In this document: positions 1 to 23,567 of the stretch, one piece after another
Layout of the letters: each line of letters begins with the position of its first letter
Position numbering within the stretch: position 1 is the first letter of the stretch
Source of the DNA: a virus
Direction: 5' to 3' (one strand)
UHGV virus genome: UHGV-0310739
Length of the DNA: 32,363 nucleotides
Notes under the pieces: generated by a model
The model's input: the letters and a program-made list of their open reading frames with translations, nothing else
What the model was told of the DNA's origin: nothing
Database searches by the model: none
Translations under genes and position numbers: made by a program

Positions 1-206
1 TTAGGATCGTGGTTAAACAGTGCGCGTACATCATCACCAAGCACATCGTCAAAAGCGCCGGGCCGGATGATTTCGCGGAATGAACCGAATATCAGCTCAG
101 AACGACAGTCAAACACCGAACCATAACCGATAATGTGCGCCGGGTTATCGTCATGCCTCTCAGCACGCACCTCACCGCTGTAACAACGGATTTCACGGTC
201 ATTCAT
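1..206 (-). CDS. Prohead protease, HK97 family (N-terminal part; gene continues beyond window start); flanking DNA outside the Mu-like element
   Basis: Minus-strand ATG at 206-204 preceded by GAGGG; translation MNDREIRCYSGEVRAERHDDNPAHIIGYGSVFDCRSELIFGSFREIIRPGAFDDVLGDDVRALFNHDP carries the PGAF...DVRALFNHD pattern I associate with HK97-type prohead proteases. Not in ORF track because it has no stop in the window. Confidence 0.55.
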   Translation of the reverse strand, partial: MNDREIRCYSGEVRAERHDDNPAHIIGYGSVFDCRSELIFGSFREIIRPGAFDDVLGDDVRALFNHDP

Positions 207-323
207 TGGTTTTTCCCTCATCGTTTTTTGGGGGCTTAAAATCTCCTGCCGGGTTAGCAGCATTCACGCTTACCAGCATCTCGTCCAGCCCTTCAACCGG
301 ATTCATATCCTCGAATGCGCGGG
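199..323 (-). pseudogene. Possible 3' remnant of a gene interrupted by the Mu-like insertion (or a 35-aa small ORF); reading frame open from the attL junction to a TGA overlapping the protease start
   Basis: Minus-strand frame reads RAFEDMNPVEGLDEMLVSVNAANPAGDFKPPKNDEGKTNE then stop at 201-199, overlapping the protease ATG. Only 5 codons are open upstream of the internal ATG, so the evidence for disruption is weak. Confidence 0.25.
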
Positions 324-328
324 TGTAT

Positions 329-350
329 TGATTCACTTGAAGTACGAAAA
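329..350 (+). promoter_or_regulatory. attL transposase-binding site L1
   Basis: 22-mer tgattcacttgaagtacgaaaa, 6-27 bp from the element end; direct repeat of L3. Confidence 0.75.
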
Positions 351-433
351 AAACCGGGAGGACATTGGATTATTCGGTATTTGGCGGGATTAGATTTAGT
401 GGGGCTTGCAAGCCTGTAGGACAGATTTTAGCC

Positions 434-455
434 GTTACATCTTGAAACGCGAAAG
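434..455 (+). promoter_or_regulatory. attL transposase-binding site L2
   Basis: gttacatcttgaaacgcgaaag shares the ...TTGAA...CGAAA core with L1; offset 111 from the end. Confidence 0.65.
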
Positions 456-473
456 ATTGTTGGAAACAGCTTT

Positions 474-495
474 TGATTCATTAAAGACACGAAAA
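474..495 (+). promoter_or_regulatory. attL transposase-binding site L3
   Basis: tgattcattaaagacacgaaaa, near-identical in pattern to L1; offset 151 from the end. Confidence 0.7.
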
Positions 496-662
496 GCAAT
501 TACTTCACGCATCATTTCAAGTACAGCTTCAAAAATGCTTCAAAAACGGTAACAACCAGGCTTTCAGCAAGTGATGTGTGTCAAAAACAATCATCACTGT
601 TTGAGTATCTTACATATGTAATTACCTGGAGTGAAGTTTATGTCTTAGCTATTACCTGGTTG

Positions 663-1187
663 TTATACAGCTTTCTTTACATCGTTTTCTCTTACAGGGA
701 AATTATGTTCTTTGCCTTCATACTGAGACAAAATCTCTCTCACTTTTTCCGGTGGTAATGCCTGAAGAGTTTGCAGGGTTTTCTGTTGCTCCACAGTAAT
801 CCCTAATGCCTCTAATGCCTTATCTTTACTGACAATTGTAGGCATAAGTCCTTTAATCCCTGCTACACGAATGATCTCCACTGCTGCGGCCTGCTCATCT
901 GGTGTTAAGAAACTCATTGCATAAATTAGCCTCTCATCAACTGTATGGACGATTGATGTATGCACTGGTTTATCAGAAAGTGAGGCTCCTTTAATGGCCC
1001 TGCGTGTTTCTTCTGGCAGACTGTTGATGTGATACTCATAAGCGACACCTTTCCCACCGTGACGCTGACGTTTTACCCAATCTTCCGCCACAGCTTTCCT
1101 GGTAATGTTAGTCGCCAACTTTGGTACACCAGGCATCCCTTCCAGCTCTTTCGCATTAAACCATTCTTTGATTTCAAAAGACATCAT
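663..1187 (-). CDS. c: Mu-type repressor c (lysogeny repressor)
   Basis: 174-aa minus-strand ORF divergent from ner; N-terminus ([27 protein letters not shown]...GKGVAYEYHINSLP) is clearly homologous to the N-terminus of the adjacent transposase, the known Mu repressor/MuA shared DNA-binding domain. Confidence 0.85.
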   Translation of the reverse strand: MMSFEIKEWFNAKELEGMPGVPKLATNITRKAVAEDWVKRQRHGGKGVAYEYHINSLPEETRRAIKGASLSDKPVHTSIVHTVDERLIYAMSFLTPDEQAAAVEIIRVAGIKGLMPTIVSKDKALEALGITVEQQKTLQTLQALPPEKVREILSQYEGKEHNFPVRENDVKKAV

Positions 1188-1372
1188 TTAAAATCCTAGT
1201 GATTTCAATAGAGACAAAATAAATTCATATAAAAATCATGCTGTTATATGAAATCATGATAAATCCTTTCAAATCACTATTGATTTAAAAATGATTCCAC
1301 ACTACATTGCACGATATGCCGTGAGCTACTTTATAGCGTAGCTCACGGGGGAATCTGAAAGGATTACATGAA
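1188..1372. promoter_or_regulatory. Divergent operator/promoter region between c and ner (expected Pe/Pc, repressor operators, transposition enhancer)
   Basis: AT-rich 185-bp gap between divergent c and ner with reiterated (a)aatcat/tgattt motifs; about 0.9-1.05 kb from the left end, where Mu's operator/enhancer lies. Individual sites not resolved. Confidence 0.6.
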
Positions 1373-1594
1373 ATGCATATGAATAAAAGAACTAACCGCC
1401 AAGATTGGCACAGAGCTGACATCGTTGCAGAGCTACGAAAACGCAATATGTCACTAGCTGAATTGGGAAGATCTAATCATCTTTCGTCTTCAACATTAAA
1501 AAATGCTTTGGATAAGAGATATCCGAAAGCGGAGAAAATCATTGCAGATGCACTGGGAATGACACCGCAAGATATTTGGCCGTCTCGATACTAG
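1373..1594 (+). CDS. ner: Ner-like DNA-binding regulator
   Basis: 73 aa; first gene of the rightward early operon; motif [23 protein letters not shown]...IWPSRY typical of the Ner/Nlp family; GAAAGGA RBS upstream. Confidence 0.85.
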
Positions 1595-1601
1595 GTGCGC
1601 T

Positions 1602-3590
1602 ATGAAAGAATGGTATACAGCAAAAGAGTTGCTCGGTTTGGCAGGTTTACCAAAGCAAGCCACTAACATTACACGTAAGGCACAAAGAGAAGGCTGGGAG
1701 TTCAGGCAGGTTGCAGGGACTAAAGGTGTATCATTTGAATTCAATATCAAATCATTCCCTGTCGCATTACGTGCTGAAATTCTGTTGCAACAAGGGAGAA
1801 TTGAAACAAGTCAGGGGTATTTTGAAATCGCCCGCCCCACGCTGGAAGCCCATGATTATGATCGTGAGGCACTGTGGAGCAAATGGGATAACGCCAGCGA
1901 TTCCCAGCGCAGACTTGCTGAAAAATGGTTGCCTGCGGTTCAGGCTGCAGACGAAATGCTGAACCAGGGGATTTCAACGAAAACGGCTTTTGCGACCGTT
2001 GCAGGGCATTACCAGGTCAGCGCATCCACTTTGCGGGACAAGTATTACCAGGTACAGAAGTTTGCGAAGCCTGACTGGGCGGCTGCACTTGTTGATGGAC
2101 GTGGAGCATCCCGTCGCAATGTTCACAAAAGTGAATTTGACGAGGATGCCTGGCAGTTTCTGATTGCAGATTATCTGCGACCGGAAAAACCCGCCTTCCG
2201 CAAATGTTATGAGCGTCTGGAACTGGCAGCCCGCGAGCATGGCTGGAGTATTCCCTCCCGTGCCACGGCCTTTCGCCGGATTCAGCAACTGGACGAGGCA
2301 ATGGTTGTTGCCTGTCGTGAAGGTGAACATGCACTGATGCATCTGATACCGGCACAGCAGCGAACTGTGGAACACCTGGACGCCATGCAGTGGATCAACG
2401 GCGACGGTTATCTGCATAACGTCTTTGTACGCTGGTTTAACGGTGATGTGATCCGTCCGAAAACATGGTTCTGGCAGGATGTGAAAACCCGAAAAATTCT
2501 GGGCTGGCGCTGCGATGTGAGCGAGAACATTGATTCAATTCGCCTCTCGTTCATGGATGTTGTGACTCGCTACGGTATCCCGGAGGATTTTCACATCACC
2601 ATTGATAACACCCGTGGTGCTGCGAATAAATGGCTGACGGGAGGCGCGCCCAATCGCTACCGCTTTAAGGTAAAAGAGGACGATCCAAAAGGACTGTTTT
2701 TACTGATGGGGGCGAAAATGCACTGGACAAGCGTTGTTGCCGGTAAAGGCTGGGGCCAGGCAAAACCTGTTGAACGTGCTTTCGGTGTTGGTGGGCTTGA
2801 GGAATACGTTGATAAGCATCCGGCACTGGCTGGCGCATATACGGGGCCTAATCCGCAGGCAAAACCTGATAACTATGGCGACCGCGCTGTTGATGCAGAG
2901 CTGTTTCTGAAAACCCTTGCCGAAGGTGTGGCGATGTTCAATGCCAGAACAGGCCGTGAAACAGAAATGTGCGGAGGCAAACTTTCGTTTGATGACGTTT
3001 TTGAGCGTGAATACGCCAGAACGATTGTGCGTAAGCCTACCGAAGAGCAAAAACGGATGCTGTTACTGCCTGCCGAGGCAGTGAACGTTTCACGTAAAGG
3101 CGAGTTCGCGCTTAAAGTTGGTGGCTCCCTTAAAGGTGCGAAAAACGTTTATTACAACATGGCGTTAATGAATGCCGGAGTAAAAAAAGTTGTGGTCAGA
3201 TTTGATCCACAGCAGTTACACAGCACGGTTTATTGCTACACCCTTGACGGTCGGTTTATCTGTGAAGCGGAATGTCTGGCACCTGTTGCGTTTAATGATG
3301 CTGCGGCAGGCCGTGAATATCGCCGCCGCCAGAAACAACTGAAATCTGCGACGAAAGCAGCAATTAAGGCACAGAAACAAATGGATGCACTGGAAGTGGC
3401 AGAGCTGCTGCCGCAGATAGCCGAACCTGAAGCACCAGAATCACGAATTGTCGGCATTTTCCGGCCTTCCGGTAATACGGAACGAGTGAAGAATCAGGAG
3501 CGTGATGATGAATACGAAACTGAGCGTGATGAATATCTGAATCATTCGCTGGATATTCTGGAACAGAACAGACGTAAAAAAGCCATTTAA
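1602..3590 (+). CDS. A: DDE transposase (MuA)
   Basis: 662 aa; N-terminal domain paralogous to repressor; DDE residues readable at D268 (WINGDGY), D335 (ITIDNTRG), E391 (KPVERAF), matching the spacing of MuA D269/D336/E392. Confidence 0.95.
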
Positions 3591-3628
3591 TTAACGTTTA
3601 AACAAAATTTAATTACGAGGTTATTCAG

Positions 3629-4567
3629 ATGAATATTTCCGATATTCGCGCAGGACTGCGCACGCTTGTAGAAAATGAAGAAACCACCTTTAAACAAATT
3701 GCTCTTGAGAGCGGACTTTCTACCGGAACTATCAGTAGTTTTATCAATGATAAGTACAACGGGGATAACGAGCGTGTTTCACAAATGCTGCAACGCTGGC
3801 TGGAAAAATATCATGCAGTTGCAGAACTACCTGAACCGCCCCGCTTTGTGGAAACGCAGACGGTAAAACAAATCTGGACAAGTATGCGTTTTGCCAGCCT
3901 GACTGAAAGTATTGCTGTTGTATGTGGCAATCCTGGTGTGGGCAAAACCGAAGCGGCCCGTGAATATCGCCGCACCAATAACAATGTCTGGATGATCACC
4001 ATTACGCCATCCTGTGCCAGCGTTCTGGAATGTCTTACTGAACTGGCGTTTGAGCTGGGAATGAATGACGCACCACGCCGTAAAGGGCCGCTCTCCCGCG
4101 CCCTGCGACGTCGCCTTGAAGGTACACAGGGGCTGGTTATCATCGACGAAGCTGATCATCTTGGTGCCGAAGTTCTGGAAGAACTCCGCCTGTTACAGGA
4201 ATCAACCCGTATTGGCCTTGTGCTGATGGGAAATCACCGGGTTTATTCAAATATGACGGGGGGTAACAGAACGGTTGAATTTGCCCGTCTGTTTTCCCGT
4301 ATTGCAAAGCGCACTGCAATTAATAAAACCAAAAAAGCCGATGTAAAAGCTATTGCGGATGCCTGGCAGATTAACGGCGAAAAAGAACTGGAGTTATTAC
4401 AGCAGATTGCGCAGAAACCAGGTGCGCTTCGCATTCTGAATCATTCACTTCGCCTTGCCGCCATGACGGCTCACGGTAAAGGTGAGCGTGTTAACGAAGA
4501 TTATCTGCGTCAGGCTTTCCGTGAATTAGACCTGGACGTTGATATTTCAACGCTGCTGCGTAATTAA
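3629..4567 (+). CDS. B: Transposition target-DNA activator (MuB), AAA+ ATPase
   Basis: 312 aa (the size of Mu B); Walker A GNPGVGKT and Walker B LVIIDEADHL readable in the translation; immediately downstream of A. Confidence 0.95.
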   Translation: MNISDIRAGLRTLVENEETTFKQIALESGLSTGTISSFINDKYNGDNERVSQMLQRWLEKYHAVAELPEPPRFVETQTVKQIWTSMRFASLTESIAVVCGNPGVGKTEAAREYRRTNNNVWMITITPSCASVLECLTELAFELGMNDAPRRKGPLSRALRRRLEGTQGLVIIDEADHLGAEVLEELRLLQESTRIGLVLMGNHRVYSNMTGGNRTVEFARLFSRIAKRTAINKTKKADVKAIADAWQINGEKELELLQQIAQKPGALRILNHSLRLAAMTAHGKGERVNEDYLRQAFRELDLDVDISTLLRN

Positions 4568-4582
4568 GAAGGAGAAGAAATT

Positions 4583-4810
4583 ATGATGGCCCGAAATATA
4601 AAAATGGCAACGGATGCGCAGAACTGGTTACAGGCGCGCGGGAGTCATGTAAATGAATCATATCTCGGCGTGGCGCGTCCGATTCTTGAAATCACTTACC
4701 CACCGGTGGAACTGGTAAAAAACGCGGTCAGAATTATGGAGCATAAGTCCGGGGTGGCCCGTTCTGTATGGACGGCCCGTCTTAATGGTTGCCAGATTAT
4801 CTGGAGATAA
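4583..4810 (+). CDS. Small early protein at the Mu kil position (host killing / cell-division inhibition candidate)
   Basis: 75 aa, strong AAGGAG RBS, immediately after B as kil is in Mu; assignment by position and size only. Confidence 0.5.
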
Positions 4811-4812
4811 CG

Positions 4813-5043
4813 ATGTGTATTAAAGCTGAAAAATATATTGAATGGGTTAAACACTGTCAGTGCCACGGGTTGCCGCTGACGACATATAAATGCCCCGGAT
4901 GTGGTGAACAGATTATGACGCAATGCTCACCCGAAAAGGAAATTCGGGATTCCCTGACATGTTGTCCGTGGTGCAGCGCGGTTTTCTTTAAGCAGGTAAA
5001 AGGCGCGAAGGTAAAAGCCAGCGCAGTTATTCAGAATCAATAA
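4813..5043 (+). CDS. Hypothetical zinc-ribbon protein
   Basis: ATG at 4813 with GGAG 6 nt upstream (ORF track opens earlier at 4789); CPGC and CPWC pairs about 20 residues apart. Confidence 0.5.
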   Translation: MCIKAEKYIEWVKHCQCHGLPLTTYKCPGCGEQIMTQCSPEKEIRDSLTCCPWCSAVFFKQVKGAKVKASAVIQNQ

Positions 5044-5054
5044 GGAGAAACAAA

Positions 5055-5324
5055 ATGGCAAAGGTTATCTTTGAGTTTACATGGCTGGAAAGTAGTGACG
5101 GTTGCAATGGGCGCAGAGAAGTTCTGGATGCAAAAGCATGTCTTGCAGATATCTCGCCAACGGAAAATACCGGGCCTCATGATTTACTGGCAAATATCGT
5201 CCTGACTATGGCTCCTGAAATTATTAAAAAGGCCAAAGATGAGATGCTGACCACTATGAAGAAAGTGGGTATGGAAGCTGAATGTGATTTAGTACCACAT
5301 CCGGTGAATGCGGTTAAACATTAA
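5055..5324 (+). CDS. Hypothetical early protein
   Basis: 89-aa ORF in the rightward early operon with AGGAG RBS; no recognisable motif. Confidence 0.5.
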   Translation: MAKVIFEFTWLESSDGCNGRREVLDAKACLADISPTENTGPHDLLANIVLTMAPEIIKKAKDEMLTTMKKVGMEAECDLVPHPVNAVKH

Positions 5325-5344
5325 TTCGCAAAGGAACGCTGACA

Positions 5345-5764
5345 ATGAACGTCAAAATCCGAAATGAAATTCAGGCATTAATCCGAATTCAGGAACGCAA
5401 TAACAACGGTGGTGAATTACGCGAGTTTATTTGCGCCAGGAAAGTTGATGATTGTGGTGAAAAGACGTACCTGATTGCTTTCGACCATTACAGCATCTGT
5501 GCGCGTTATTGCGGCGAAAGCATATCCCGCGCCATTGCATTTGGAGGTGCGTTCAACGTGGATTTATGGGAGTACGTCATGGACCGGGAATACATCTGCG
5601 CATCAGACCCTGAAGCCCGTGAAATGTGGCAGCGTATCTGGCGCGATTACCGGTTAATGGCAAAAGGCTGGGCGCGCTGCTGTTATTCCTCGCTTGCCCT
5701 GAAAGCGGTTCAGTTATCGCTGCGACATATTCCGGCACCACTGCGCGAGCCTCTGCTGTACTGA
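5345..5764 (+). CDS. Hypothetical early protein
   Basis: 139-aa ORF, co-oriented and tightly packed. Confidence 0.5.
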   Translation: MNVKIRNEIQALIRIQERNNNGGELREFICARKVDDCGEKTYLIAFDHYSICARYCGESISRAIAFGGAFNVDLWEYVMDREYICASDPEAREMWQRIWRDYRLMAKGWARCCYSSLALKAVQLSLRHIPAPLREPLLY

Positions 5765-6064
5765 ATGGTGGCTGACATGAAGTGTAATCGTAAGCGCTGG
5801 TCACGCGAAGACCGGGAATTTATCGAAGCCAACGTCGGGAAAATGACCGTTGAAGAAATGGCGGAAAAACTGAAAGTCGCCACAACCGCCCTCCGGGCAC
5901 ATGCCAGAAGGCACGGAATATCATTGTGTGTATACCGAATCAGTGAGCACGACAAATATTTGTGTCGTGAACTTTATAAAGAAGGGCTGGATATTCATGT
6001 CATTGCCCGAAAGATGGAATTAAGCAATCGGGCTGTATCCAGCATTGTATACAGCGGATATTAA
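5765..6064 (+). CDS. Hypothetical early protein with two helix-turn-helix-like segments
   Basis: 99 aa; two segments (MTVEEMAEKLKVATTALRAHARRHG and LDIHVIARKMELSNRAVSSIVY) look like HTH units; the start could instead be the in-frame ATG at 5777. Confidence 0.45.
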   Translation: MVADMKCNRKRWSREDREFIEANVGKMTVEEMAEKLKVATTALRAHARRHGISLCVYRISEHDKYLCRELYKEGLDIHVIARKMELSNRAVSSIVYSGY

Positions 6065-6083
6065 TTAACAGGAGCTTTAATTT

Positions 6084-6608
6084 ATGGCTAAACCAGCAAA
6101 ACGTATCAAAAGTGCCGCAGCGGCTTATGTGCCACAAAACCGCGATGCGGTGATTACCGATATTAAACGCATCGGGGATTTACAGCGCGAAGCATCACGT
6201 CTGGAAACGGAAATGAATGATGCCATCGCGGAAATTACGGAGAAATTTGCAGCCCGGATTGCACCGATTAAAACCGATATTGAAACCCTTTCAAAAGGTG
6301 TTCAGGGATGGTGTGAAGCGAACCGCGACGAACTGACAAACGGCGGCAAAGTGAAGACGGCGAATCTTGTCACCGGTGATGTATCGTGGCGGGTCCGTCC
6401 ACCCTCAGTAAGTATTCGTGGTATGGATGCAGTGATGGAAACGCTGGAGCGTCTTGGCCTGCAACGCTTTATTCGCACGAAGCAGGAAATCAACAAGGAA
6501 GCGATTTTACTGGAACCGAAAGCGGTCGCAAGTGTTGCCGGAATTACAGTTAAATCGGGAATTGAAGATTTTTCCATTATTCCGTTTGAACAGGAAGCCG
6601 GTATTTAA
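6084..6608 (+). CDS. gam: Host-nuclease inhibitor Gam (Ku-like DNA-end-binding protein)
   Basis: 174 aa, the size of Mu Gam, and the sequence (MAKPAKRIKSAAAAYVPQNRDAVITDIKRIGDLQREASRLETEMNDAIAEITEKF...) matches my recollection of Mu Gam; GGAG RBS. Confidence 0.8.
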   Translation: MAKPAKRIKSAAAAYVPQNRDAVITDIKRIGDLQREASRLETEMNDAIAEITEKFAARIAPIKTDIETLSKGVQGWCEANRDELTNGGKVKTANLVTGDVSWRVRPPSVSIRGMDAVMETLERLGLQRFIRTKQEINKEAILLEPKAVASVAGITVKSGIEDFSIIPFEQEAGI

Positions 6609-6706
6609 TACCACCATTAATATTTAATTAATTCACATTCTTTTAATTATGGCGCGATGCGTCAGGGGATTGCTCGCGCCTGAAACAGATTACTGAGGAA
6701 TAAAAC

Positions 6707-7237
6707 ATGGTTGATGCAAAAATTCTGAATGGTGTCAGCACATTATTACGGGCTTACGGACGCCTGACCTGCGGAGTTCTGGCTGAAAAAATGAATATGC
6801 TGCCCTCGTCAATGGTGTATTTCCTGCGTGATGCAGTTGATGCCGGAGTGCTCACCGAATGCAACGGATTTTATGACGTTCCGCGCCCGCGTCCGACGCC
6901 GCCTGTAAGACGAAACGTAACTGAGCAGCCTGCTGTTGATGATGCGGTGTGGTGCAACTGGCGTCGCTCATTACCCTGGGTGGAAGGTAATACCATCCCC
7001 GCGCTGGCAAAAGAGTTTGCGACGGGCGTACTGACCTGTGAATCCGTTCACATCGTTGCAGAAGTGGACAACAGCATGTGCGAACAGGGTATGCCCCGTT
7101 TTGTGATGGCTTATATCGATATCCGGCTGGGGCGTTTTATTTGCAGTTCAAGCGCCTGGAATATCACCGACCATGTACTGCGTTATCTCATTCTTGATTG
7201 TTCTCCGGTTCCCGCAGCGGTGCAGGAGGTGGCGTGA
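6707..7237 (+). CDS. Hypothetical early protein, possible N-terminal winged-helix
   Basis: 176-aa ORF with AGGAA RBS; stop overlaps the next start (ATGA). Confidence 0.5.
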   Translation: MVDAKILNGVSTLLRAYGRLTCGVLAEKMNMLPSSMVYFLRDAVDAGVLTECNGFYDVPRPRPTPPVRRNVTEQPAVDDAVWCNWRRSLPWVEGNTIPALAKEFATGVLTCESVHIVAEVDNSMCEQGMPRFVMAYIDIRLGRFICSSSAWNITDHVLRYLILDCSPVPAAVQEVA

Positions 7238-7767
7238 TGTTTTTTAAAACGTCAAATTCCGCAGCACTGCTGGCATGGGACCAGTTTATGGCGGACTGCC
7301 TGAAACTACGCGAAGAAGCCCGCCATCTTGATAAGGTTCTGGGCTGTGGTTGCCGGTCAGTATTCAGCACAGGTATTGGTGGGCGTCATTTTCATGGCGT
7401 GAATTTTCCGGGGAATGAGCGCCCCTTCTCGCGGGAGCTGTGGACCGTACAACGGCCCGCATCAGGTAACAGTTGCAGGCCCAGAACTTCACGGATACCT
7501 GCTCATCTCAGGGAGCAGGCAAGAGAGCTGGCGAAAATATGGCAGGAGAATATTCCGGTCACTTACGCCCGCACAGACGCTCTTTTACCCGCACTGGGAC
7601 TGGATTTCAGCGCAACAATATTCGGGCCGCTCCAGTGGTTCCGTGTTGGTGATGTGATTTACGTCATGACGGGGATGACACCCGCACAAGGCCGCATGAC
7701 TGAAATCCTTTCTGACGAATTTATCCGGGCGCAAAAACAGGCGGAGGTAAACAATGGAAAACAATGA
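7237..7767 (+). CDS. Hypothetical early protein
   Basis: ATG 7237 with GGAGG 7 nt upstream (ORF track opens at 7198); 176 aa. Confidence 0.5.
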   Translation: MFFKTSNSAALLAWDQFMADCLKLREEARHLDKVLGCGCRSVFSTGIGGRHFHGVNFPGNERPFSRELWTVQRPASGNSCRPRTSRIPAHLREQARELAKIWQENIPVTYARTDALLPALGLDFSATIFGPLQWFRVGDVIYVMTGMTPAQGRMTEILSDEFIRAQKQAEVNNGKQ

Positions 7768-7946
7768 AAAACAATGAAACATCGTATTCGTGGCTGGGGA
7801 AATTTACCACGGTGAAACAGGAATGCCCGACCTGCGGTAATGAATCTCCTGAATATCTGAAAGAGTGCCCTCATTGTGGCGGGCAGAAATGCAACCACTG
7901 CGATATGGGCGATGACACGGCGTGCATGAATTGTGAAGGTGAATAA
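7764..7946 (+). CDS. Hypothetical Cys-rich zinc-ribbon protein
   Basis: 60 aa with four CxxC pairs (CPTC, CPHC, CNHC, CMNC); start overlaps the upstream stop (ATGA). Confidence 0.5.
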   Translation: MKNNETSYSWLGKFTTVKQECPTCGNESPEYLKECPHCGGQKCNHCDMGDDTACMNCEGE

Positions 7947-8238
7947 TATGAATAATGAAACTAAATTTACGCCTAAAGACCTGGATGAAGAACTGGTGAA
8001 AGCTAAGATGCTTGAGCGTATGCGCGATGTTATTGAGACTGCAATCAGTAAAGGCTTTTCTGCGAGAGAGGCCCTTGAAATTATGACACGGGAAATTCAT
8101 CTCATACGCGACGAAGTTTTGTTGCATAACAAAAAAGCCCACAACAATATTGTTTGTCGTGAGCTTGGCGTTGATGATTCAGCGGTTATTCCACAGCGTC
8201 AGTATCTGTGTGCTCTGATGAGAGGTTCCCGGCATTAA
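7933..8238 (+). CDS. Hypothetical protein (last rightward early ORF before the AT-rich island)
   Basis: 101 aa; GAAGGTG RBS 6 nt before ATG 7933; 3' end overlaps the convergent minus-strand ORF by 53 bp. Confidence 0.5.
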   Translation: MKVNNMNNETKFTPKDLDEELVKAKMLERMRDVIETAISKGFSAREALEIMTREIHLIRDEVLLHNKKAHNNIVCRELGVDDSAVIPQRQYLCALMRGSRH

Positions 8239-8545
8239 CAATATCCTGCCTTGAAGCCCAGAGCTTATTGAGCAGCAGATCAACATACTCATCGGCCTCA
8301 AAATCCAGTTCTTCGAACGTTTTTCGGTTCTTATAGCTGGCCTGTGTATTTCTGATGATGTCATAAGCATCGTGCATGTTGATAACACCGTTTTCAATCA
8401 GCTTAATCATCAGATTACCGACCAGCATAAAACCGGTTATACCAAAGAATTTATCCTGGTTATTAACAGGGGTGTCTTTCTGGTTTGTTTCGAAATCTGG
8501 GTTTTGTTCATCATCCGACACCGTATGTTGTTCTTGTTCAGCCAT
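8186..8545 (-). CDS. Hypothetical acidic protein encoded antisense to the early operon (candidate moron)
   Basis: 119 aa; AAGGA RBS about 6 nt before the minus-strand ATG at 8545; Asp/Glu-rich with a disordered-looking N-terminus; sits in a visibly AT-richer segment where a 120-codon open frame is unlikely by chance. Confidence 0.6.
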   Translation of the reverse strand: MAEQEQHTVSDDEQNPDFETNQKDTPVNNQDKFFGITGFMLVGNLMIKLIENGVINMHDAYDIIRNTQASYKNRKTFEELDFEADEYVDLLLNKLWASRQDIVNAGNLSSEHTDTDAVE

Positions 8546-8614
8546 AATATTTCCTTTTATGTTATTACTGAATATGGCGGTGTTGCAGCACCGCCTCTTT
8601 CCGGAGGTACGATC

Positions 8615-9166
8615 ATGAGTCGCACATCCCTGATTAAATTAATCCATGTCGCCCGTCGGGAGCTACAACTCGACGACGACACTTACCGCGCTTTTCTGAT
8701 GCAGAAAACGGGCAAAATCAGTTGCCGCGAGCTTACGGTTACGCAACTGGAACAGGTGCTCGATGCCATGAAAGAACGCGGCTTTAAGAAGCTGAATAAA
8801 TACCCCCGTCGCCGCTTTAAGGAACATGTCACACCCCGCGAGAAGGTGTATAAAATCTGGCAGCAGATGGCAGAAGACGGTTTTATTACCGATGGCGGTG
8901 ATGTGGCGCTGGACAGATATGTTCAACGCCTGACCGCGAAACGCAACGGCGGACAGGGTGTTTCCACACTGGCGTGGTGTCATGGCGACACGCTGCTGAC
9001 AGTCCTCGAAACACTCAAACAGTGGCACATCCGCTGTATTCGTGAAGCCTTTTCCCGTCACGGGCTTCCATTGCCGGTCAGTCCGTCCGGTCGTGAACTG
9101 CGCGGCTATGATGCCATGACGGCGGCTTATGCCCATGCCAGAAAGACACGGAGGATGGCACAATGA
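8615..9166 (+). CDS. gemA: GemA-like protein (Mu gene 16 position)
   Basis: 183 aa from ATG 8615 with GGAGG RBS (track ORF 8372..9166 opens upstream at a GTG through hydrophobic AT-rich sequence); immediately upstream of and overlapping mor, as in Mu. Confidence 0.7.
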   Translation: MSRTSLIKLIHVARRELQLDDDTYRAFLMQKTGKISCRELTVTQLEQVLDAMKERGFKKLNKYPRRRFKEHVTPREKVYKIWQQMAEDGFITDGGDVALDRYVQRLTAKRNGGQGVSTLAWCHGDTLLTVLETLKQWHIRCIREAFSRHGLPLPVSPSGRELRGYDAMTAAYAHARKTRRMAQ

Positions 9167-9552
9167 CGGAAGATTTATTTGGTGATTTGCAGGATGACAC
9201 CATCCTGGCACATCTTGACAATCCCGCAGAGGATACGTCACGCTTTCCGGCACTGCTGGCGGAGCTGAACGATTTACTACGCGGGGAATTGTCCCGACTG
9301 GGTGTTGATCCTGCCCATTCACTGGAGATTGTTGTGGCTATCTGTAAGCATCTGGGCGGCGGTCAGGTCTACATTCCACGCGGTCAGGTTCTGGACTCGC
9401 TGATTCGGGATTTGCGTATCTGGAATGATTTTAACGGTCGCAACGTCAGCGAACTGACCACCCGTTATGGTGTCACTTTCAATACGGTTTACAAGGCCAT
9501 TCGCCGGATGCGACGGCTGAAATACCGCCAGTACCAGCCCTCACTTCTGTAA
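9163..9552 (+). CDS. mor: Middle-operon transcription activator Mor
   Basis: 129 aa; C-terminal region (GGGQVYIPRGQVLDSLIRDLRIWNDFNGRNVSELTTRYGVTFNTVYKAIRRMR) is paralogous to the C protein downstream; followed by a strong terminator. Confidence 0.85.
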   Translation: MTEDLFGDLQDDTILAHLDNPAEDTSRFPALLAELNDLLRGELSRLGVDPAHSLEIVVAICKHLGGGQVYIPRGQVLDSLIRDLRIWNDFNGRNVSELTTRYGVTFNTVYKAIRRMRRLKYRQYQPSLL

Positions 9553-9557
9553 ACAGT

Positions 9558-9582
9558 AAAGCCGGTTAATCCGGCTTTTTTT
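9558..9582 (+). terminator. Rho-independent terminator at the end of the early operon
   Basis: aaagccgg-ttaat-ccggcttt hairpin followed by a T-run, starting 6 bp after the mor stop. Confidence 0.75.
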
Positions 9583-9629
9583 ACGTCCTCAATATCCTGT
9601 GATGAATAACCGTACCGGGGGAAATCATC

Positions 9630-9848
9630 ATGGGTAAAGGCTGGAATGCATCCTTTCATCTTGGCAGACGTGAGCGGCTGCGTCAGGAGGTTTTGCACCG
9701 TGTCGCCGGTGGGCCACGTCCTGCGCCCCGCGACTATACCGGTCATGATGGCACCCACGGCAGTTATTACATGAAAGGCTGGCAGTCAGTTGATATGCCG
9801 GAAATTCTTCATCATTGCCTGCTTTACAGGGAGAAACATTATGTCTGA
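9630..9848 (+). CDS. Hypothetical small protein
   Basis: 72-aa ORF with GGGGGA RBS; first ORF after the early terminator. Confidence 0.35.
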   Translation: MGKGWNASFHLGRRERLRQEVLHRVAGGPRPAPRDYTGHDGTHGSYYMKGWQSVDMPEILHHCLLYREKHYV

Positions 9849-10203
9849 GCGTTCTGCTCGTCAGTGGCCTGATTTTTTATCGGTGGTGTTACTGGCGCTG
9901 TTATTGTGGATAAGTCTGTTTTGTGGCTGGCGCGCGCTGATGTTTTGCTGTGCCTCGGTTTTCAGTGTTGCTTTATGTGTTGCCGGTGATTGCCTGGATG
10001 CGCTGATAATGAGCTGCCGGGTGCCTGAACATTTTGCCCGGTTCGTCTGGCCTCTGACCTGGCTGGGGAGTCTGTCCGGGCTGGGATTAGCCGTGATGGC
10101 AACGTCTCAACTGAAAACGGGTCCTGAGCATGTCATCTGGGCGCTGGCCGGATTGCTGACGTTCTGGATCTCCTTTCGTTTTCGCGCTCGTCTGTTCGGG
10201 TAA
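9841..10203 (+). CDS. Hypothetical integral membrane protein (about 4 transmembrane helices)
   Basis: ATG 9841 with GGGAGA RBS; four long hydrophobic stretches in 120 aa. Confidence 0.5.
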   Translation: MSERSARQWPDFLSVVLLALLLWISLFCGWRALMFCCASVFSVALCVAGDCLDALIMSCRVPEHFARFVWPLTWLGSLSGLGLAVMATSQLKTGPEHVIWALAGLLTFWISFRFRARLFG

Positions 10204-10212
10204 AGGGGCACC

Positions 10213-10332
10213 ATGTACAGAAAATTCAGTGATGAATGTTTCGGGCCGTCCACGCTGATTAGTGCGATAAAAGTGATTGCCCTTGTGGTTCTGATAACCA
10301 TCAGTGCCGTGGTGTATCTTTCTGTCTGTTAA
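10213..10332 (+). CDS. Hypothetical 39-aa single-pass membrane peptide
   Basis: ATG 10213 with aaagggg RBS right after the upstream stop; MYRKFSDECFGPSTLISAIKVIALVVLITISAVVYLSVC has one hydrophobic helix; below the ORF-track size cutoff. Confidence 0.35.
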   Translation: MYRKFSDECFGPSTLISAIKVIALVVLITISAVVYLSVC

Positions 10333-10344
10333 CCGGGGGAAAAT

Positions 10345-10767
10345 ATGCAGCATGATTTATTTGAACACGATCCGGCAATTCGCCAGTTAATCGGACATAT
10401 TGATAACATCCCGGCCCCGGAACTGGAATCACGCTGGCCCCGTTCGGTGGTTGATCTGATTGATGTTCTGGAAAACGAACTGAAACGCCAGAACGTCAGC
10501 AATCCCCGTGAACTTGCCCGTAAACAGGCCGTTGCCCTGTCATGTTTTCTGGGTGGACGGCAGTTTTACATCCCCTGCGGCGATACGATCCTGACCGCGT
10601 TACGCGACGATTTGCTTTACTGCCAGTTTAATGGTCGTAACATGGAAGAACTGCGTCGCCAGTACCGCCTGTCCCAGCCGCAGATCTACCAGATTATTGC
10701 CCGCCAGAGAAAGCTGCATACACGACGTCATCAGCCTGATCTGTTCTCACCTGAAAGCCCAAAATAA
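10345..10767 (+). CDS. C: Late-gene transcription activator C (Mor/C family)
   Basis: 140 aa; C-terminal region aligns by eye with Mor (GGRQFYIPCGDTILTALRDDLLYCQFNGRNMEELRRQY...); GGGGGA RBS. Confidence 0.85.
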   Translation: MQHDLFEHDPAIRQLIGHIDNIPAPELESRWPRSVVDLIDVLENELKRQNVSNPRELARKQAVALSCFLGGRQFYIPCGDTILTALRDDLLYCQFNGRNMEELRRQYRLSQPQIYQIIARQRKLHTRRHQPDLFSPESPK

Positions 10768-10790
10768 CCGGCATCCTGCCGGTTATTTCC
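10766..10790 (+). terminator. Possible terminator hairpin at the C stop codon
   Basis: aaccggca-tcc-tgccggtt perfect 8-bp stem overlapping the stop, followed by only a weak T tract (atttcc). Confidence 0.4.
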
Positions 10791-10858
10791 TGTCACCATA
10801 ATCCCGCATCTGCCACCTGATTTTTTAGACTGCCATCAGAGCATTTTTTCAGGGAAGC

Positions 10859-11377
10859 ATGATGGCGGGGATACCAAAAAAACTGAAAGCCACACTGCTG
10901 GCTGTAACGATTGCCGGTGGCGGTGTGGGTGGTTATCAGGAAATGACCCGTCAGTCTCTGATCCATCTGGAAAATATCGCTTATATGCCTTACCGCGATA
11001 TTGCCGGTGTGCTTACGGTCTGTGTGGGACATACCGGGCCGGATATCGAAATGCGCCGTTACAGCCATGCGGAGTGTATGGCTCTCCTCGACAGTGATTT
11101 AAAACCGGTTTATGCGGCAATCGATCGTCTTGTCAGGGTGCCGCTGACGCCATATCAGAAAACGGCGCTGGCAACGTTTATTTTCAACACTGGTGTTACC
11201 GCATTCAGTAAATCAACGCTGCTGAAAAAACTCAATGCCGGTGATTACGCCGGAGCGCGTGACCAGATGGCCCGCTGGGTGTTTGCCGCAGGCCATAAAT
11301 GGAAAGGACTGATGAACCGTCGCGAAGTGGAAATGGCAATCTGGAATATCAGGGGGGCGGATGACCTTCGCAAGTAA
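10859..11377 (+). CDS. lys: Endolysin, T4-lysozyme-like (GH24) with N-terminal signal-anchor-release-like domain
   Basis: 172 aa; catalytic triad spacing E-9-D-6-T in HLENIAYMPYRDIAGVLTVCVGHTG as in T4 lysozyme E11/D20/T26; Gly-rich hydrophobic N-terminus (LKATLLAVTIAGGGVGGY). Confidence 0.85.
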   Translation: MMAGIPKKLKATLLAVTIAGGGVGGYQEMTRQSLIHLENIAYMPYRDIAGVLTVCVGHTGPDIEMRRYSHAECMALLDSDLKPVYAAIDRLVRVPLTPYQKTALATFIFNTGVTAFSKSTLLKKLNAGDYAGARDQMARWVFAAGHKWKGLMNRREVEMAIWNIRGADDLRK

Positions 11378-11747
11378 AAGTTTACTGCTGGCAGCCGTGT
11401 TTGCCGCCGTTCTGTCCGGTGTGTTGTGGCACAGGCTGGGCAGCACCCGCCACGATAACCAGACGCTGCGCCGTGAATTACAGACGGAGCAACAGGCCCG
11501 CCACACGGCTGAATGGTTGTTACACGGTCAGGAGCAAACGATGCAGGTATTTTCCGCTATCCGTGCCGCAAATCGTGCCGCGCGGCTGGCAGACGAGACA
11601 GAACATCATGATGCAAAACAAAAAATTACAACCGCCATTACCGGTGACAATTGCAGCACTCGTCCTGTGCCTGCCGGTGCTGCTGACAGGTTGCGGGAAC
11701 TCGAAAAACGCACCCGTGCCATCGGTGGTGCTCCTGCCCGAAACTGA
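11361..11747 (+). CDS. Inner-membrane spanin component (i-spanin, Rz-like)
   Basis: 128 aa; N-terminal transmembrane helix (LLLAAVFAAVLSGVLW) followed by a charged, helical periplasmic region; directly after the endolysin. Confidence 0.6.
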   Translation: MTFASKSLLLAAVFAAVLSGVLWHRLGSTRHDNQTLRRELQTEQQARHTAEWLLHGQEQTMQVFSAIRAANRAARLADETEHHDAKQKITTAITGDNCSTRPVPAGAADRLRELEKRTRAIGGAPARN

Positions 11748-11949
11748 TGCAGAACTGACGGAAGCAACACCCGTTCCGCCCATGCCACAGCCCCTGACGT
11801 GGGGAGCATCCCTTCTCTGGAATGCTGACCTGTTGATGGCGCTCGGGCAGTGCAACCGCGACAAGGCATCAGTCCGGGAACAGGAGACCCGGAGGAAAGA
11901 AATTTATGAACGAAGACCAGAACCGGGCGGTGGTGCTGCTGCTCGCTGA
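11608..11949 (+). CDS. Outer-membrane lipoprotein spanin component (o-spanin, Rz1-like), overlapped architecture
   Basis: Starts in the +1 frame inside the i-spanin gene; signal peptide with lipobox LLTGC; proline-rich mature region; extends past the i-spanin stop. Unusually long at about 113 aa. Confidence 0.5.
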   Translation: MMQNKKLQPPLPVTIAALVLCLPVLLTGCGNSKNAPVPSVVLLPETDAELTEATPVPPMPQPLTWGASLLWNADLLMALGQCNRDKASVREQETRRKEIYERRPEPGGGAAAR

Positions 11950-12100
11950 ACTCTGGCAGGGGGATACCCGTGATATTCCCCGCCCGGCGGCGTATGACCC
12001 GCCTGTATTGTGTGCCGGTTGCGGTCGTGAGCTGCGGCCTGATGTGCTGAGACAGCAGCCGATGGCGAACTACTGCCACTGGTGCCGTGGAGCAGAATAA
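11906..12100 (+). CDS. Hypothetical zinc-ribbon protein
   Basis: 64 aa; GGAGGAAAG RBS; CAGC and CHWC pairs 18 residues apart. Confidence 0.4.
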   Translation: MNEDQNRAVVLLLAELWQGDTRDIPRPAAYDPPVLCAGCGRELRPDVLRQQPMANYCHWCRGAE

Positions 12101-12399
12101 TGGATTTGATTTCAGTTTTAGCGTTATGGCCTTACCTGTTGCCTGTTGTGGCCGGTGGGGCCGTCTGGGCGATGCGTCGTAGTTTTGCCAGCACCGAGCG
12201 TGTGGAGCGTCTTGAAAACCGGATGACCGAAATGGAAACCCGCTACGCCAGCATCCCAGGCACAGAAGATGTACACGAAATGCGCCTGCGTATTGCAGAG
12301 CTGTCCGGCGATATCCGGGTGCTGTCCCAGCGGGTGCAGTCATTTTCCCATCAACTGGAGCTGCTGCTTGAAAACGCAGTAAACCGGAGTAATTCATGA
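12100..12399 (+). CDS. Small membrane protein with N-terminal transmembrane helix and coiled-coil (candidate lysis regulator / releasin-like, Mu gp25 position)
   Basis: ATG 12100 overlapping the upstream stop (TAATG) with GGAG RBS; 99 aa; N-terminal hydrophobic helix then charged helical region; last gene of the lysis block. Confidence 0.45.
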   Translation: MDLISVLALWPYLLPVVAGGAVWAMRRSFASTERVERLENRMTEMETRYASIPGTEDVHEMRLRIAELSGDIRVLSQRVQSFSHQLELLLENAVNRSNS

Positions 12400-12686
12400 T
12401 TAACGATATTCTGACTGAAGACCGTCGTCTGGTCATCCTGCGTTCCCTGATGGACTGCAATAACGAAGCCAACGAATCCATCCTTCAGGACTGTCTGGAT
12501 GCATACGGACACAACGTTTCCCGCGATGTGGTTCGCGGCCAGATTGACTGGCTGGCAGAGCAGCAACTGGTCACCGTGGAAAACCTGCGCGGCTTTTATG
12601 TCGTAACGCTGACCTCCCGAGGTCAGGATGTGGCGGAAGGCCGCGCCCGCGTTGCCGGTGTCAAGCGTCCGCGTCCCCGTGCATGA
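12396..12686 (+). CDS. Hypothetical protein (Mu gp26 position)
   Basis: 96-aa ORF translationally coupled to its neighbours. Confidence 0.55.
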   Translation: MINDILTEDRRLVILRSLMDCNNEANESILQDCLDAYGHNVSRDVVRGQIDWLAEQQLVTVENLRGFYVVTLTSRGQDVAEGRARVAGVKRPRPRA

Positions 12687-12697
12687 CAGGAGGCGTG

Positions 12698-13273
12698 ATG
12701 GACAGGAAAACACGGGGCCGGGCTTCAAAAGTGGATTTACTGCCGGAAAACGTACGTAAAACGCTGCATGAAATGCTGCGTGATAAGGCGATCCCACAGG
12801 CCCGCATTCTGGAAGAAATTAACGCACTGATTGAAGACGCTGGCCTGCCGGATGAGATGAAACTCTCCCGTTCCGGTCTGAACCGTTACGCGACGAACGT
12901 CGAGCAAGTAGGCCATAACCTGCGACAGATGCGTGAAATGACGTCAGCACTGACCGCAGAACTTGGCGACAAGCCAATGGGAGAAACCACAAAGCTGATT
13001 CTGGAAATGGCCCGCAGCCAGCTTTTTAAGGCCATGATGCGGCAAATCGAAAACCCGGAATCTGACGTGGATATTGACCTGCTGAAAAATGCCATGCTGG
13101 CGGCACAGCGTCTGGAATCCACGGCAATGTCCAGCCACCGGCGCGAGAAAGAAATCCGCCAGGCATTCGCAGAAGAAGCGGCAAACGCCGTCAGTGAAGA
13201 ACTGCGCGGGCAGGATGGCATCAGCGAAGAGCTGGAGCAGCGTATCCGTGATGTGCTGCTGGGTAAGGCATGA
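12698..13273 (+). CDS. Terminase small subunit-like protein (Mu gp27/D position)
   Basis: ATG 12698 with GGAGG RBS; 191 aa, basic N-terminus (MDRKTRGRASKVDLLPENVRKTL) and acidic helical C-terminus; immediately upstream of the large terminase. Confidence 0.65.
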   Translation: MDRKTRGRASKVDLLPENVRKTLHEMLRDKAIPQARILEEINALIEDAGLPDEMKLSRSGLNRYATNVEQVGHNLRQMREMTSALTAELGDKPMGETTKLILEMARSQLFKAMMRQIENPESDVDIDLLKNAMLAAQRLESTAMSSHRREKEIRQAFAEEAANAVSEELRGQDGISEELEQRIRDVLLGKA

Positions 13274-13280
13274 GAGGGTT

Positions 13281-17774: not shown

Positions 17775-18241
17775 GTCTTGATATGAACGTTGCCGTGGAT
17801 GTGCGACGTATTCAGCTTGCACTGGATGAACTGGGAACCGTTACACGTGACCGCGCCATTCCCCGTGTGATGGCTGCGGCGCTGCTGTCATCCACGGAAC
17901 AGGCATTTGAACGGCAGGCAGACCCGGATACAGGGAAAGGCTGGGAAGCGTGGAGCGATTCGTGGCAGGCATGGCGTCAGGATCATGGTTTTGTTCCGGG
18001 CAGTATCCTTACCCTGCATGGCGATCTGGCACGCAGCATTACCACCGATTATGGACAGGATTATGCCCTTATTGGTTCGCCAAAAATTTATGCTGCCATT
18101 CATCAGTGGGGCGGTACACCCGATATGGCACCCCGCCCGGCAGGCGTTCCTGCGCGTCCTTATATGGGGCTGGATAAGACCGGGGAACAGGAAATTTTTG
18201 ATGCCATCAGAAAACGCGTCAGCGCCGCTCTGAGGCAATAA
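17771..18241 (+). CDS. Virion morphogenesis protein (Mu gp31/G position)
   Basis: 156-aa ORF coupled to F (overlapping GTGA); synteny. Confidence 0.7.
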   Translation: MSLDMNVAVDVRRIQLALDELGTVTRDRAIPRVMAAALLSSTEQAFERQADPDTGKGWEAWSDSWQAWRQDHGFVPGSILTLHGDLARSITTDYGQDYALIGSPKIYAAIHQWGGTPDMAPRPAGVPARPYMGLDKTGEQEIFDAIRKRVSAALRQ

Positions 18242-18437
18242 ACTGAATCAGACATGAAATCAGCCGCACAGATTTTTTAAAACGCGCCACGGGATTTTTA
18301 AACCGGTATTTAACGGTGTATGAATCCCGTTTTATCTTCCTTCCACTTTCTTTCTCCATTACTCAAATAGCATAACCCCAGATTTTCCCGCACCTCCCGC
18401 AAACTGACTGCTCACAAACCATGATGAGCAGCAGGAC
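18242..18437. promoter_or_regulatory. Central intergenic region between G and I: expected late promoter for the head operon and candidate strong gyrase site
   Basis: 196-bp non-coding gap about 17.9-18.1 kb from the left end, where Mu carries its strong gyrase site and C-dependent I promoter; contains an 8-bp inverted repeat acgggatt/aatcccgt and a cataacccca...gatttt motif also found upstream of lys. Confidence 0.4.
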
Positions 18438-20437: not shown

Positions 20438-20445
20438 CCGTCGTT

Positions 20446-23558: not shown

Positions 23559-23567
23559 GGAGCATTT

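What the first reader, a model, noticed from the sequence alone, without database searches (positions are those of the whole stretch)
1..330. Mu-like element appears inserted within another prophage's head-morphogenesis operon
The 323 bp left of attL encode, on the minus strand, the start of an HK97-type prohead protease (PGAF...DVRALFNHD motif). The frame upstream of it is open right up to the Mu junction, consistent with, though not proving, a portal-like gene cut by the insertion. This would be a nested phage-in-prophage arrangement that inactivates the resident prophage.
Basis: inference. Interest (0 to 1): 0.45.

Follow-up and report, generated by a model that had tools for sequence, protein, structure and literature searches.

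The report
Mu-type phage inserted in SfV-like portal gene
A complete, mobile Mu/D108-type transposable phage sits inside the portal gene of a second, SfV-like prophage of E. coli. This is a real phage-inside-prophage arrangement, but it is an expected outcome of Mu's near-random insertion, not a new kind of system.

Summary
Window 1-323 is 322/323 identical to phage SfV. On the minus strand it holds the first 68 codons of the HK97-family prohead protease (Pfam PF04586) and the last 40 codons of the portal gene. Similarity to SfV stops exactly at 323/324, where a Mu-type left end begins. Window 324-32363 is 32,040/32,040 identical to Escherichia virus Mu_3F6, a D108-like Muvirus.

The right end lies outside the window, so I predicted the other junction. 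With a 5-bp duplication of GCGGG, the portal would end ...SRNEAR followed by a TGA from Mu's terminal TGAAGCGG. That exact 369-aa protein exists in public assemblies. Three independent contigs read ...GTGCGCCGCTTCA|GCGGG|CCTCATTACGG..., continuing into the rest of the portal, a 53-aa ORF and terminase. One of them matches the window 100% over 5,066 shared bases.

The nested arrangement and the duplication are therefore shown. Inactivation of the resident prophage is plausible but not shown. The portal loses 39 residues, and protease, capsid and tail genes are moved 36,977 bp from their upstream genes.

The insertion signature recurs in many gut metagenomes. The same Mu sequence sits in yejO in its reference record, so the element is recently mobile. 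This is ordinary biology: a new instance of a known kind.

The parts
1..206 (-). First 68 codons of an HK97-family (Peptidase_S78) prohead protease gene of an SfV-like prophage. The gene runs off the left edge of the window (full length 200 aa in relatives).
   Evidence: Translation. PF04586 at 39.5 bits against a cut-off of 21. 99.7% nt identity to SfV orf4, head maturation protease. PGAP name 'HK97 family phage prohead protease' in 216 E. coli genomes.
199..323 (-). Orphaned 3' end of the SfV-type portal gene: its last 40 codons, ...RAFEDMNPVEGLDEMLVSVNAANPAGDFKPPKNDEGKTNE*, cut off from the rest of the gene by the Mu insertion.
   Evidence: Translation. Identical to the C-terminus of SfV orf3 portal and to WP_000923135.1 in E. 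coli. On its own the 40-aa piece has no Pfam hit.
319..323 (.). Left copy of the 5-bp target-site duplication, GCGGG.
   Evidence: Present once in intact SfV (L001 6319-6323). Present next to the Mu left end in the window and next to the Mu right end in L029, L030 and L032.
324..32363 (+). Left 32,040 bp of a 36,977-bp Mu/D108-type transposable prophage, running from the left end (TGTATTGATTCACTTGAAGTACG...) to the left inverted repeat of the invertible G segment.
   Evidence: 100.000% identity over 32,040 nt to LR595867.1 Escherichia virus Mu_3F6 150-32189. 98.2% to D108, whose record starts at window 324. Gene content.
663..1187 (-). D108-type repressor gene c (174 aa), transcribed toward the Mu left end and the flanking protease gene.
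   Evidence: ORF. Annotated 'Repressor protein CI' in LR595867.1. PF02316 HTH_Tnp_Mu_1.
1373..1594 (+). ner (73 aa), the early regulator.
   Evidence: ORF. 'Ner-like regulatory protein'. PF13693.
1602..3590 (+). MuA-type transposase (662 aa).
   Evidence: ORF. 'DNA transposition protein'. PF02316, PF09039, PF02914 (DDE_2) and PF09299.
3629..4567 (+). MuB-type transposition ATPase (312 aa).
   Evidence: ORF. annotation. PF09077 Phage-MuB_C.
32336..32363 (.). Left inverted repeat bounding the invertible G segment. The window stops inside it.
   Evidence: L002 32162-34965 is inverted in L029, and the two alignments overlap at L002 32162-32195, which is window 32336-32369.

Best explanation
A D108-like Muvirus, identical over all 32,040 shared bases to Escherichia virus Mu_3F6, integrated by MuA/MuB transposition into a resident SfV-like prophage of E. 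coli. SfV-like phages have an HK97-type head module and a Mu-like contractile tail. The staggered 5-bp cut was made at GCGGG, 120 bp upstream of the portal stop codon, and repair duplicated that pentamer. The portal gene is split after Arg369 (PGAP numbering, 408-aa protein). The first three bases of the complement of Mu's right end (TGAAGCGG) supply an in-frame TGA, so the upstream piece encodes a 369-aa portal with no added residues. The last 39 codons stay attached to the protease gene.

The resident late operon runs terminase, portal, protease, capsid, connectors, tail. It is broken into two blocks 36,977 bp apart, and Mu's own transcription runs antiparallel to it. The likely consequence (inferred, not shown) is that the resident prophage cannot make infectious particles, because of a polar block on protease, capsid and tail genes and a C-terminally truncated portal. 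Mu itself remains a complete element.

Shown: both junctions, the duplication, the identity of both phages, and recurrence in many samples. Inferred: the order of events, loss of function of the resident phage, and clonal descent of the insertion.
For: Left junction and identities.

A prediction made before seeing the right flank was met. The exact 369-aa truncated portal is in the protein collection. It is encoded on 13 contigs. L029 (ENA ERZ1741935 NODE_164, 38,677 bp), L030 and L032 read ...cgtgcgccgcttca|GCGGG|cctcattacggctcatcc.... L029 then carries the 148-aa ORF, mom, com, gin, tail-fibre and baseplate genes, and it is 100% identical to window 27298-32363.

The length of NODE_164 fits 1,604 nt of right flank + 36,977 nt of Mu + 96 nt of left flank.

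Seven further contigs stop at GCGGG on the portal side, six of them exactly and one a base beyond. About ten stop exactly at 323 on the protease side. This is the pattern expected from an assembly-graph branch at a 5-bp-duplicated insertion.

GCGGG fits the published Mu target preference N-Y-(G/C)-R-N (from my own knowledge).

In 20 other genomes the same repressor or gp48 sits in 20 different sites, and the Mu_3F6 record itself is flanked by yejO. Mobility and near-random targeting are therefore evident.
Against: The window does not contain the right junction, and no single sequence I could read carries both junctions. The far end of NODE_164 could not be fetched. The junction is absent from 5,426 complete E. 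coli genomes, from GTDB representative genomes, from IMG/VR and from JGI metagenomes, so the source genome is unknown. Protease-side contigs that break at 323 carry 1-6 SNPs relative to the window. The 497 nt upstream of the portal differ by 0, 3, 4 or 7 SNPs among junction contigs, so a single clean clone is not demonstrated. Loss of function is not tested, and the truncated portal keeps almost the whole Pfam domain.
Confidence: 0.92

Rival explanations
1. The junction is not a stable lysogenic insertion. It would be an artefact or a transient product: a chimeric assembly, host DNA packaged at the left end of a Mu virion, or one of many transposition products made during lytic growth.
For: Mu virions carry host DNA at their ends, and the Mu_3F6 reference record has 149 bp of unrelated host DNA (yejO) at its left end. 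The window stops at the G-segment repeat, as a short-read contig would. The junction is absent from all complete E. coli genomes searched.
Against: The flank is at least 323 bp, longer than the 50-150 bp that Mu packages on the left (own knowledge). The reciprocal right junction, with the matching 5-bp duplication, is present on three independent contigs from different samples. Contig breaks at both duplicated ends recur in more than 20 samples from different studies. Random lytic products would not recur at one nucleotide.
Confidence: 0.04
2. The insertion is real but did not inactivate anything. The SfV-like element would already have been a defective remnant, or a second intact SfV-like copy in the same cell or population would supply all functions.
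For: Contigs break exactly at both edges of the duplication without entering Mu. This implies that an uninterrupted allele co-occurs in many samples. Some E. coli genomes have two copies of this region (up to 2 places per genome). L039, a contig starting at the junction, carries a transposase (rve) gene 2.8 kb downstream in the connector region.
Against: The flanks are 99.7% identical to the functional phage SfV with open frames. Terminase, portal, protease, capsid and connector genes are all called full-length around the site. Metagenome contigs cannot tell whether the intact allele is in the same cell.
Confidence: 0.25
3. The recurrence across samples reflects repeated independent insertions at a Mu hot spot in the portal gene, not descent from one event.
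For: Flanking SNP patterns differ among contigs. A second Mu-like prophage sits in the portal gene of a P22-like prophage in L008. GCGGG fits the Mu target consensus.
Against: Position, orientation and Mu sequence are the same in all three contigs that cross the junction. The 1,107 nt of portal next to the junction are identical in 9 of 10 contigs, whereas intact references differ by 1-3 nt. 20 other insertions of the same phage type are in 20 different sites. SNP mixing is expected from metagenome consensus of co-occurring alleles.
Confidence: 0.05

Closest known systems
Bacteriophage Mu / D108 (genus Muvirus) lysogenic integration by MuA/MuB transposition
   Same: The terminal sequence is identical to the D108 left end. 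It has the TG...CA termini, a D108-type 174-aa repressor, ner, A and B genes, the G invertible segment and mom, and a 5-bp target duplication. It is 100% identical to Mu_3F6 over all shared bases.
   Different: Nothing mechanistic differs. Only the target is unusual: another prophage's portal gene. The reference copy of the same phage is flanked by yejO.
Laboratory Mu insertions into prophage lambda (Toussaint 1969 and later Mu-lambda work; recalled from memory, not retrieved here)
   Same: Mu is integrated inside a resident prophage and exerts polar effects on its late genes.
   Different: Those insertions were selected in the laboratory. This one is natural, lies in an SfV-like prophage, and is seen in human gut metagenomes from several studies.
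Shigella/Escherichia phage SfV (NC_003444), orf3 portal and orf4 capsid protease
   Same: 322/323 nt identical. It has the same overlapping stop/start (ATGAATGA) and the same gene order: terminase, portal, protease, capsid.
   Different: The copy here is interrupted 120 bp before the portal stop. Whether the rest of the resident prophage resembles SfV (O-antigen modification genes, integrase) is unknown.
HK97 portal gp3 (PDB 8CEZ/8FQL) and the HK97 gp4 prohead protease family
   Same: The portal aligns to the HK97 portal at E = 1.3e-38 over residues 28-386. The protease fragment is PF04586.
   Different: Both are only distant sequence relatives of HK97. The truncation removes about the last 17 residues that align to the solved portal, plus an unaligned tail.

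Membership tests
Mu-type transposable phage insertion (Muvirus) | Element ends 5'-TG...CA-3' with Mu/D108 terminal sequence | tested here: met
   Window 324 reads TGTATTGATTCACTTGAAGTACG, which is position 1 of the D108 record. The right end ...GTGCGCCGCTTCA is seen in L002, L029, L030 and L032.
Mu-type transposable phage insertion (Muvirus) | 5-bp direct duplication of the target flanking the element | tested here: met
   GCGGG is at window 319-323 and next to the right end in three contigs, and occurs once in intact SfV. The left and right junctions were read on different sequences.
Mu-type transposable phage insertion (Muvirus) | Adjacent MuA (DDE transposase) and MuB genes downstream of the repressor/ner switch | tested here: met
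   ORFs at 663-1187(-), 1373-1594, 1602-3590 and 3629-4567. Pfam DDE_2, Mu-transpos_C and Phage-MuB_C on identical proteins. Annotation.
Mu-type transposable phage insertion (Muvirus) | Insertion sites differ between genomes (no fixed att site) | tested here: met
   20 loci with the same gp48 or repressor lie in 20 different contexts. The Mu_3F6 record is flanked by yejO.
HK97-family prohead protease (Pfam PF04586, Peptidase_S78) | Profile match above the curated cut-off | tested here: met
   68-aa fragment: 39.5 bits against 21, profile positions 5-60 of 165. Full-length relative P0005: 140.3 bits.
HK97-family prohead protease (Pfam PF04586, Peptidase_S78) | Complete catalytic domain (His/Ser residues) present | not testable with these tools
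   Only the first 68 of 200 codons are inside the window. The rest of the gene lies beyond position 1.
HK97-family portal (Pfam PF04860) | Profile match and gene position between terminase and protease | tested here: met
   The 369-aa upstream piece scores 324.9 bits, profile 2-317 of 321. The gene order TerS, TerL, 53-aa ORF, portal is seen in L031. HK97 portal 8CEZ matches at E = 1.3e-38. The 40-aa piece inside the window has no Pfam hit by itself, but its DNA is identical to the SfV orf3 3' end over window 199-323.
Intact, inducible SfV-like prophage as the host element | Complete prophage (integrase, regulators, lysis, tail) around the insertion | not testable with these tools
   The source genome was not found. 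Only about 3.5 kb on either side could be read, from other samples.

The most novel reading that the evidence does not exclude
The insertion could be more than a passive accident. It may mark a Mu-carrying E. coli lineage (or a spreading composite element) that persists in infant and adult guts across countries, because knocking out the resident SfV-like phage's particle production is advantageous. Mu-type phages might also be retained preferentially in morphogenesis genes of rival prophages. In support, two of about 21 inspected insertions are in portal genes (the window and L008), and one more is beside a tail-tube gene. A further untested twist: the constitutively transcribed Mu repressor gene points outward toward the orphaned protease-capsid-tail block, and the simple scan finds no terminator-like site in between. 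The lysogen might therefore express the rival's structural genes from the Mu promoter.
Probability: 0.06. Interest if true: 0.55.

Novelty: new member of a known kind. Interest (0 to 1): 0.22.

Why it matters
It is a clean, fully resolved natural example of one temperate phage disrupting another. Both junctions are known to the nucleotide, and the truncation product is predictable and exists in databases. It has practical value for annotation: prophage finders will tend to merge or mis-bound the two elements. The 369-aa 'portal' and the orphan 40-codon fragment are by-products of the insertion, not new genes. The exact junction sequences can serve as a strain marker in gut metagenomes. It does not open a new mechanism, because Mu's near-random integration makes hits in prophage DNA expected.

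Tried and rejected
1. Searching for the source. The 34-nt left junction is absent from IMG/VR, GTDB representative genomes and JGI metagenomes. The predicted right junction is absent from IMG/VR. No complete E. coli genome carries the junction.

2. Exact-protein look-ups.
- The 45-aa junction ORF is not on record.
- gp48 and the repressor are too common (12,011 and 1,060 blocks), and the 20 places shown were all other insertion sites.
- The 35-aa MNPVEG... product only found contigs that happen to start at window 308.

3. Reaching the far end of NODE_164, to put both junctions on one molecule. Ten predicted partial products are not in the collection.

4. Five alternative start codons for the truncated portal were not found. 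Only the PGAP start (MLLDALF...) exists.

5. Literature. Nothing was found on Mu_3F6 or on this insertion. One preprint on gut Mu-like phages was irrelevant to nesting.

6. Homologous recombination between the nested Mu tail genes and the SfV Mu-like tail genes. I rejected this idea: identity is only 40-47% at the protein level, with one 83-nt stretch at 77% nt identity.

7. Virion-packaged flank. Rejected on flank length and on recurrence of both junctions.

Full report
**What is in the window**

Bases 1-323 differ from phage SfV (NC_003444 3542-3864) at one synonymous position, window 120. On the minus strand, 206..1 encodes the first 68 residues of the head maturation protease: MNDREIRC...DVRALFNHDP. 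This fragment scores 39.5 bits on Pfam PF04586 Peptidase_S78 against a cut-off of 21.

Frame 3 of the minus strand is open from 321 to a TGA at 199-201. It reads RAFEDMNPVEGLDEMLVSVNAANPAGDFKPPKNDEGKTNE*, which is the exact C-terminus of the SfV portal orf3. The portal stop overlaps the protease start (ATGAATGA), as it does in SfV. The same uninterrupted stretch occurs in 216 of 5,426 complete E. coli genomes, annotated 'HK97 family phage prohead protease | phage portal protein'.

**The Mu junction**

Identity with SfV is perfect up to 323 and is lost at 324. From 324 the sequence is TGTATTGATTCACTTGAAGTACGAAAAAAACCGGG. The D108 GenBank record begins at exactly this base, at 98.2% identity. 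LR595867.1, Escherichia virus Mu_3F6, is identical over the whole remainder of the window, 32,040 of 32,040 nt.

The element carries a D108-type 174-aa repressor, ner, MuA, MuB, and the usual early, lysis, head and tail genes. In the reference record it is 36,977 bp long and ends ...GTGCGCCGCTTCA. Its right end would therefore fall near coordinate 37,300, outside the 32,363-base window. The window stops inside the left inverted repeat of the invertible G segment (window 32336-32363). That segment is inverted between L029 and the Mu_3F6 record. This suggests the source contig ended at that repeat.

**Testing the right flank without having it**

A 5-bp duplication of GCGGG (319-323) predicts that the right junction reads ...CGCTTCA GCGGG CCTCATTACGG... 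On the portal strand this gives ...AGC CGT AAT GAG GCC CGC TGA. The portal would then end ...SRNEAR, with the stop taken from the complement of Mu's last three bases and with no foreign residues added.

I built that protein with six possible start codons and asked whether the exact sequences exist among about 15 billion public proteins. The version with the PGAP start (369 aa) does exist, from ENA and Logan sources, with a longest contig of 38,677 bp.

Looking up its encoding contigs gave 13 contigs. Three cross the junction:
- L029: ENA ERZ1741935 NODE_164, 38,677 bp
- L030: ERZ27239376 k119_5008
- L032: Logan ERR14032891

All three read acgctttcgcgcttttcgtgcgccgcttca|GCGGG|cctcattacggctcatccatcc..., exactly as predicted. 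Intact SfV has a single GCGGG at that place. Upstream of the truncated portal lie the 53-aa ORF and the terminase large and small subunits (L031). Beyond the junction, L029 continues through a 148-aa ORF, mom, com, gin, the tail-fibre genes and the baseplate genes. L029 is 100% identical to window 27298-32363 over 5,066 nt. Its total length equals 1,604 + 36,977 + 96, so it should also contain the left junction. I could not fetch that end.

**Recurrence**

Seven more contigs encoding the same 369-aa product end at GCGGG; six end exactly there and one runs a base further. On the other side, 14 contigs begin at window 321-323, and about ten of them begin exactly at 323. The background is about two contigs per neighbouring nucleotide.

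Contigs that stop at the outer edge of each copy of the duplication, without entering Mu, are what a de Bruijn graph gives when interrupted and intact alleles are both present. The samples come from several studies, including PRJEB6456 human gut metagenomes and scaffolds labelled BAEC15, SHAO19, HOLS23, GAOR21 and SMIT22.

The 1,107 nt of portal adjoining the junction are identical in 9 of 10 contigs, while intact references differ by 1-3 nt. The 497 nt further upstream differ by 0, 3, 4 or 7 SNPs. The protease-side contigs carry 1-6 SNPs. I read this as one ancestral insertion blurred by allele mixing in metagenome consensus or by later recombination. Clonality is not proven.

**Why this is ordinary**

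Mu integrates almost anywhere. Ten places carrying the same gp48 and ten carrying the same repressor were all in different chromosomal contexts. The reference copy of this very phage is flanked by the core gene yejO. GCGGG fits the known Mu target preference N-Y-(G/C)-R-N (own knowledge).

Hits in prophage DNA are expected in proportion to its share of the genome, and they are likely to be tolerated. I met two others in passing. In L008, a Mu-like right end lies inside a P22-type portal gene. In a STEC genome, the Mu left end abuts a phage tail-tube gene (H57). Mu insertions in prophage lambda were made and used decades ago (recalled, not retrieved). My literature searches found no report of this particular insertion.

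**Consequences**

It is shown that the portal loses 39 of 408 residues. It is also shown that the protease, capsid, connector and tail genes are separated from the terminase and portal genes by 36,977 bp of DNA whose genes run the other way.

The truncated portal keeps Pfam PF04860 positions 2-317 of 321. Against the solved HK97 portal (8CEZ, E = 1.3e-38) the alignment extends to residue 386. The cut at 369 therefore removes about 17 aligned residues plus an unaligned tail.

Whether that portal still works is unknown. The polar separation is the stronger argument for loss of particle production, and it is an inference. The Mu repressor gene (663-1187, minus strand) points toward the orphaned protease gene, and a simple scan finds no terminator-like site in 1-1400. 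Read-through expression is therefore not excluded, but it is untested.

**Verdict**

This is a new natural instance of a known phenomenon. It is useful for annotation and as a strain marker, and of low surprise to a specialist.

Noticed in passing
L008 16180-17572 (NCBI GCA_013680995.1, AAUHSL010000001.1): A second Mu-like prophage whose right end (...cgtgcgccgcttca|gcgaacat...) lies inside the portal gene of a P22-type prophage. The 435-aa C-terminal portal remnant is followed by scaffold and coat genes. That makes two portal-gene hits among about 21 inspected Mu insertions.
   Followed up: partly
window 32336-32363; L002 32162-34965; L029: The window ends inside the left inverted repeat of the invertible G segment. 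The G segment is in opposite orientations in L029 and in the Mu_3F6 record, so the window's right edge probably reflects an assembly break caused by G inversion.
   Followed up: yes
L002 1-149 (LR595867.1): The deposited Mu_3F6 genome carries 149 bp of the chromosomal autotransporter gene yejO at its left end and no host DNA at its right end. The identical phage sequence is thus known from two different insertion contexts.
   Followed up: yes
window 308 (contigs L003-L006): Four contigs from four samples, carrying different SNP alleles, all start at exactly window 308, 15 bp short of the Mu junction. I have no explanation. It may be chance, given the size of the collection, or another recurrent assembly branch point.
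   Followed up: partly
L040-L043 (2,388 bp each) and L039 2832-3527: Several Logan contigs that start at the junction all end 2,388 bp later, just inside the gene after the head-tail connector. The longer contig L039 carries a 231-aa rve-family transposase gene there. This may be an IS insertion or a mosaic boundary in the resident prophage.
   Followed up: no
L002 36587-37033; same gene in L007, L008, L013, L029: A 148-aa ORF with an N-terminal signal-peptide-like sequence (MKKSKLLISTIISLFVLTASSVNHAQ...) lies between mom and the right end of this Mu lineage. It has no Pfam hit and looks like a moron gene. It lies outside the window.
   Followed up: no
window 324-1187: The repressor gene c is transcribed toward the left end and the flanking protease gene. 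The consensus scan finds no terminator-like hairpin between them, or anywhere in 1-1400, so outward read-through into the resident prophage's structural genes is conceivable.
   Followed up: partly
H57, NZ_CP041411.1 (E. coli STEC719) 2822317-2822893: The left end of a near-identical Mu-like prophage abuts a gene annotated 'phage major tail tube protein'. This is another likely Mu-in-prophage insertion in a complete genome.
   Followed up: no
L001 858-2508 versus window 21880-23555: The SfV tail sheath and its neighbouring gene are distant homologues (about 36-47% aa identity) of the nested Mu's own sheath region. The host prophage and its inserted guest therefore share tail-module ancestry. 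Nucleotide similarity is limited to one 83-nt stretch at 77%.
   Followed up: yes
window 120: The single difference from SfV in the flank (A in the window, T in SfV and most relatives) is a synonymous Gly codon change in the protease. Contigs L042 and L043 share the window's allele.
   Followed up: yes
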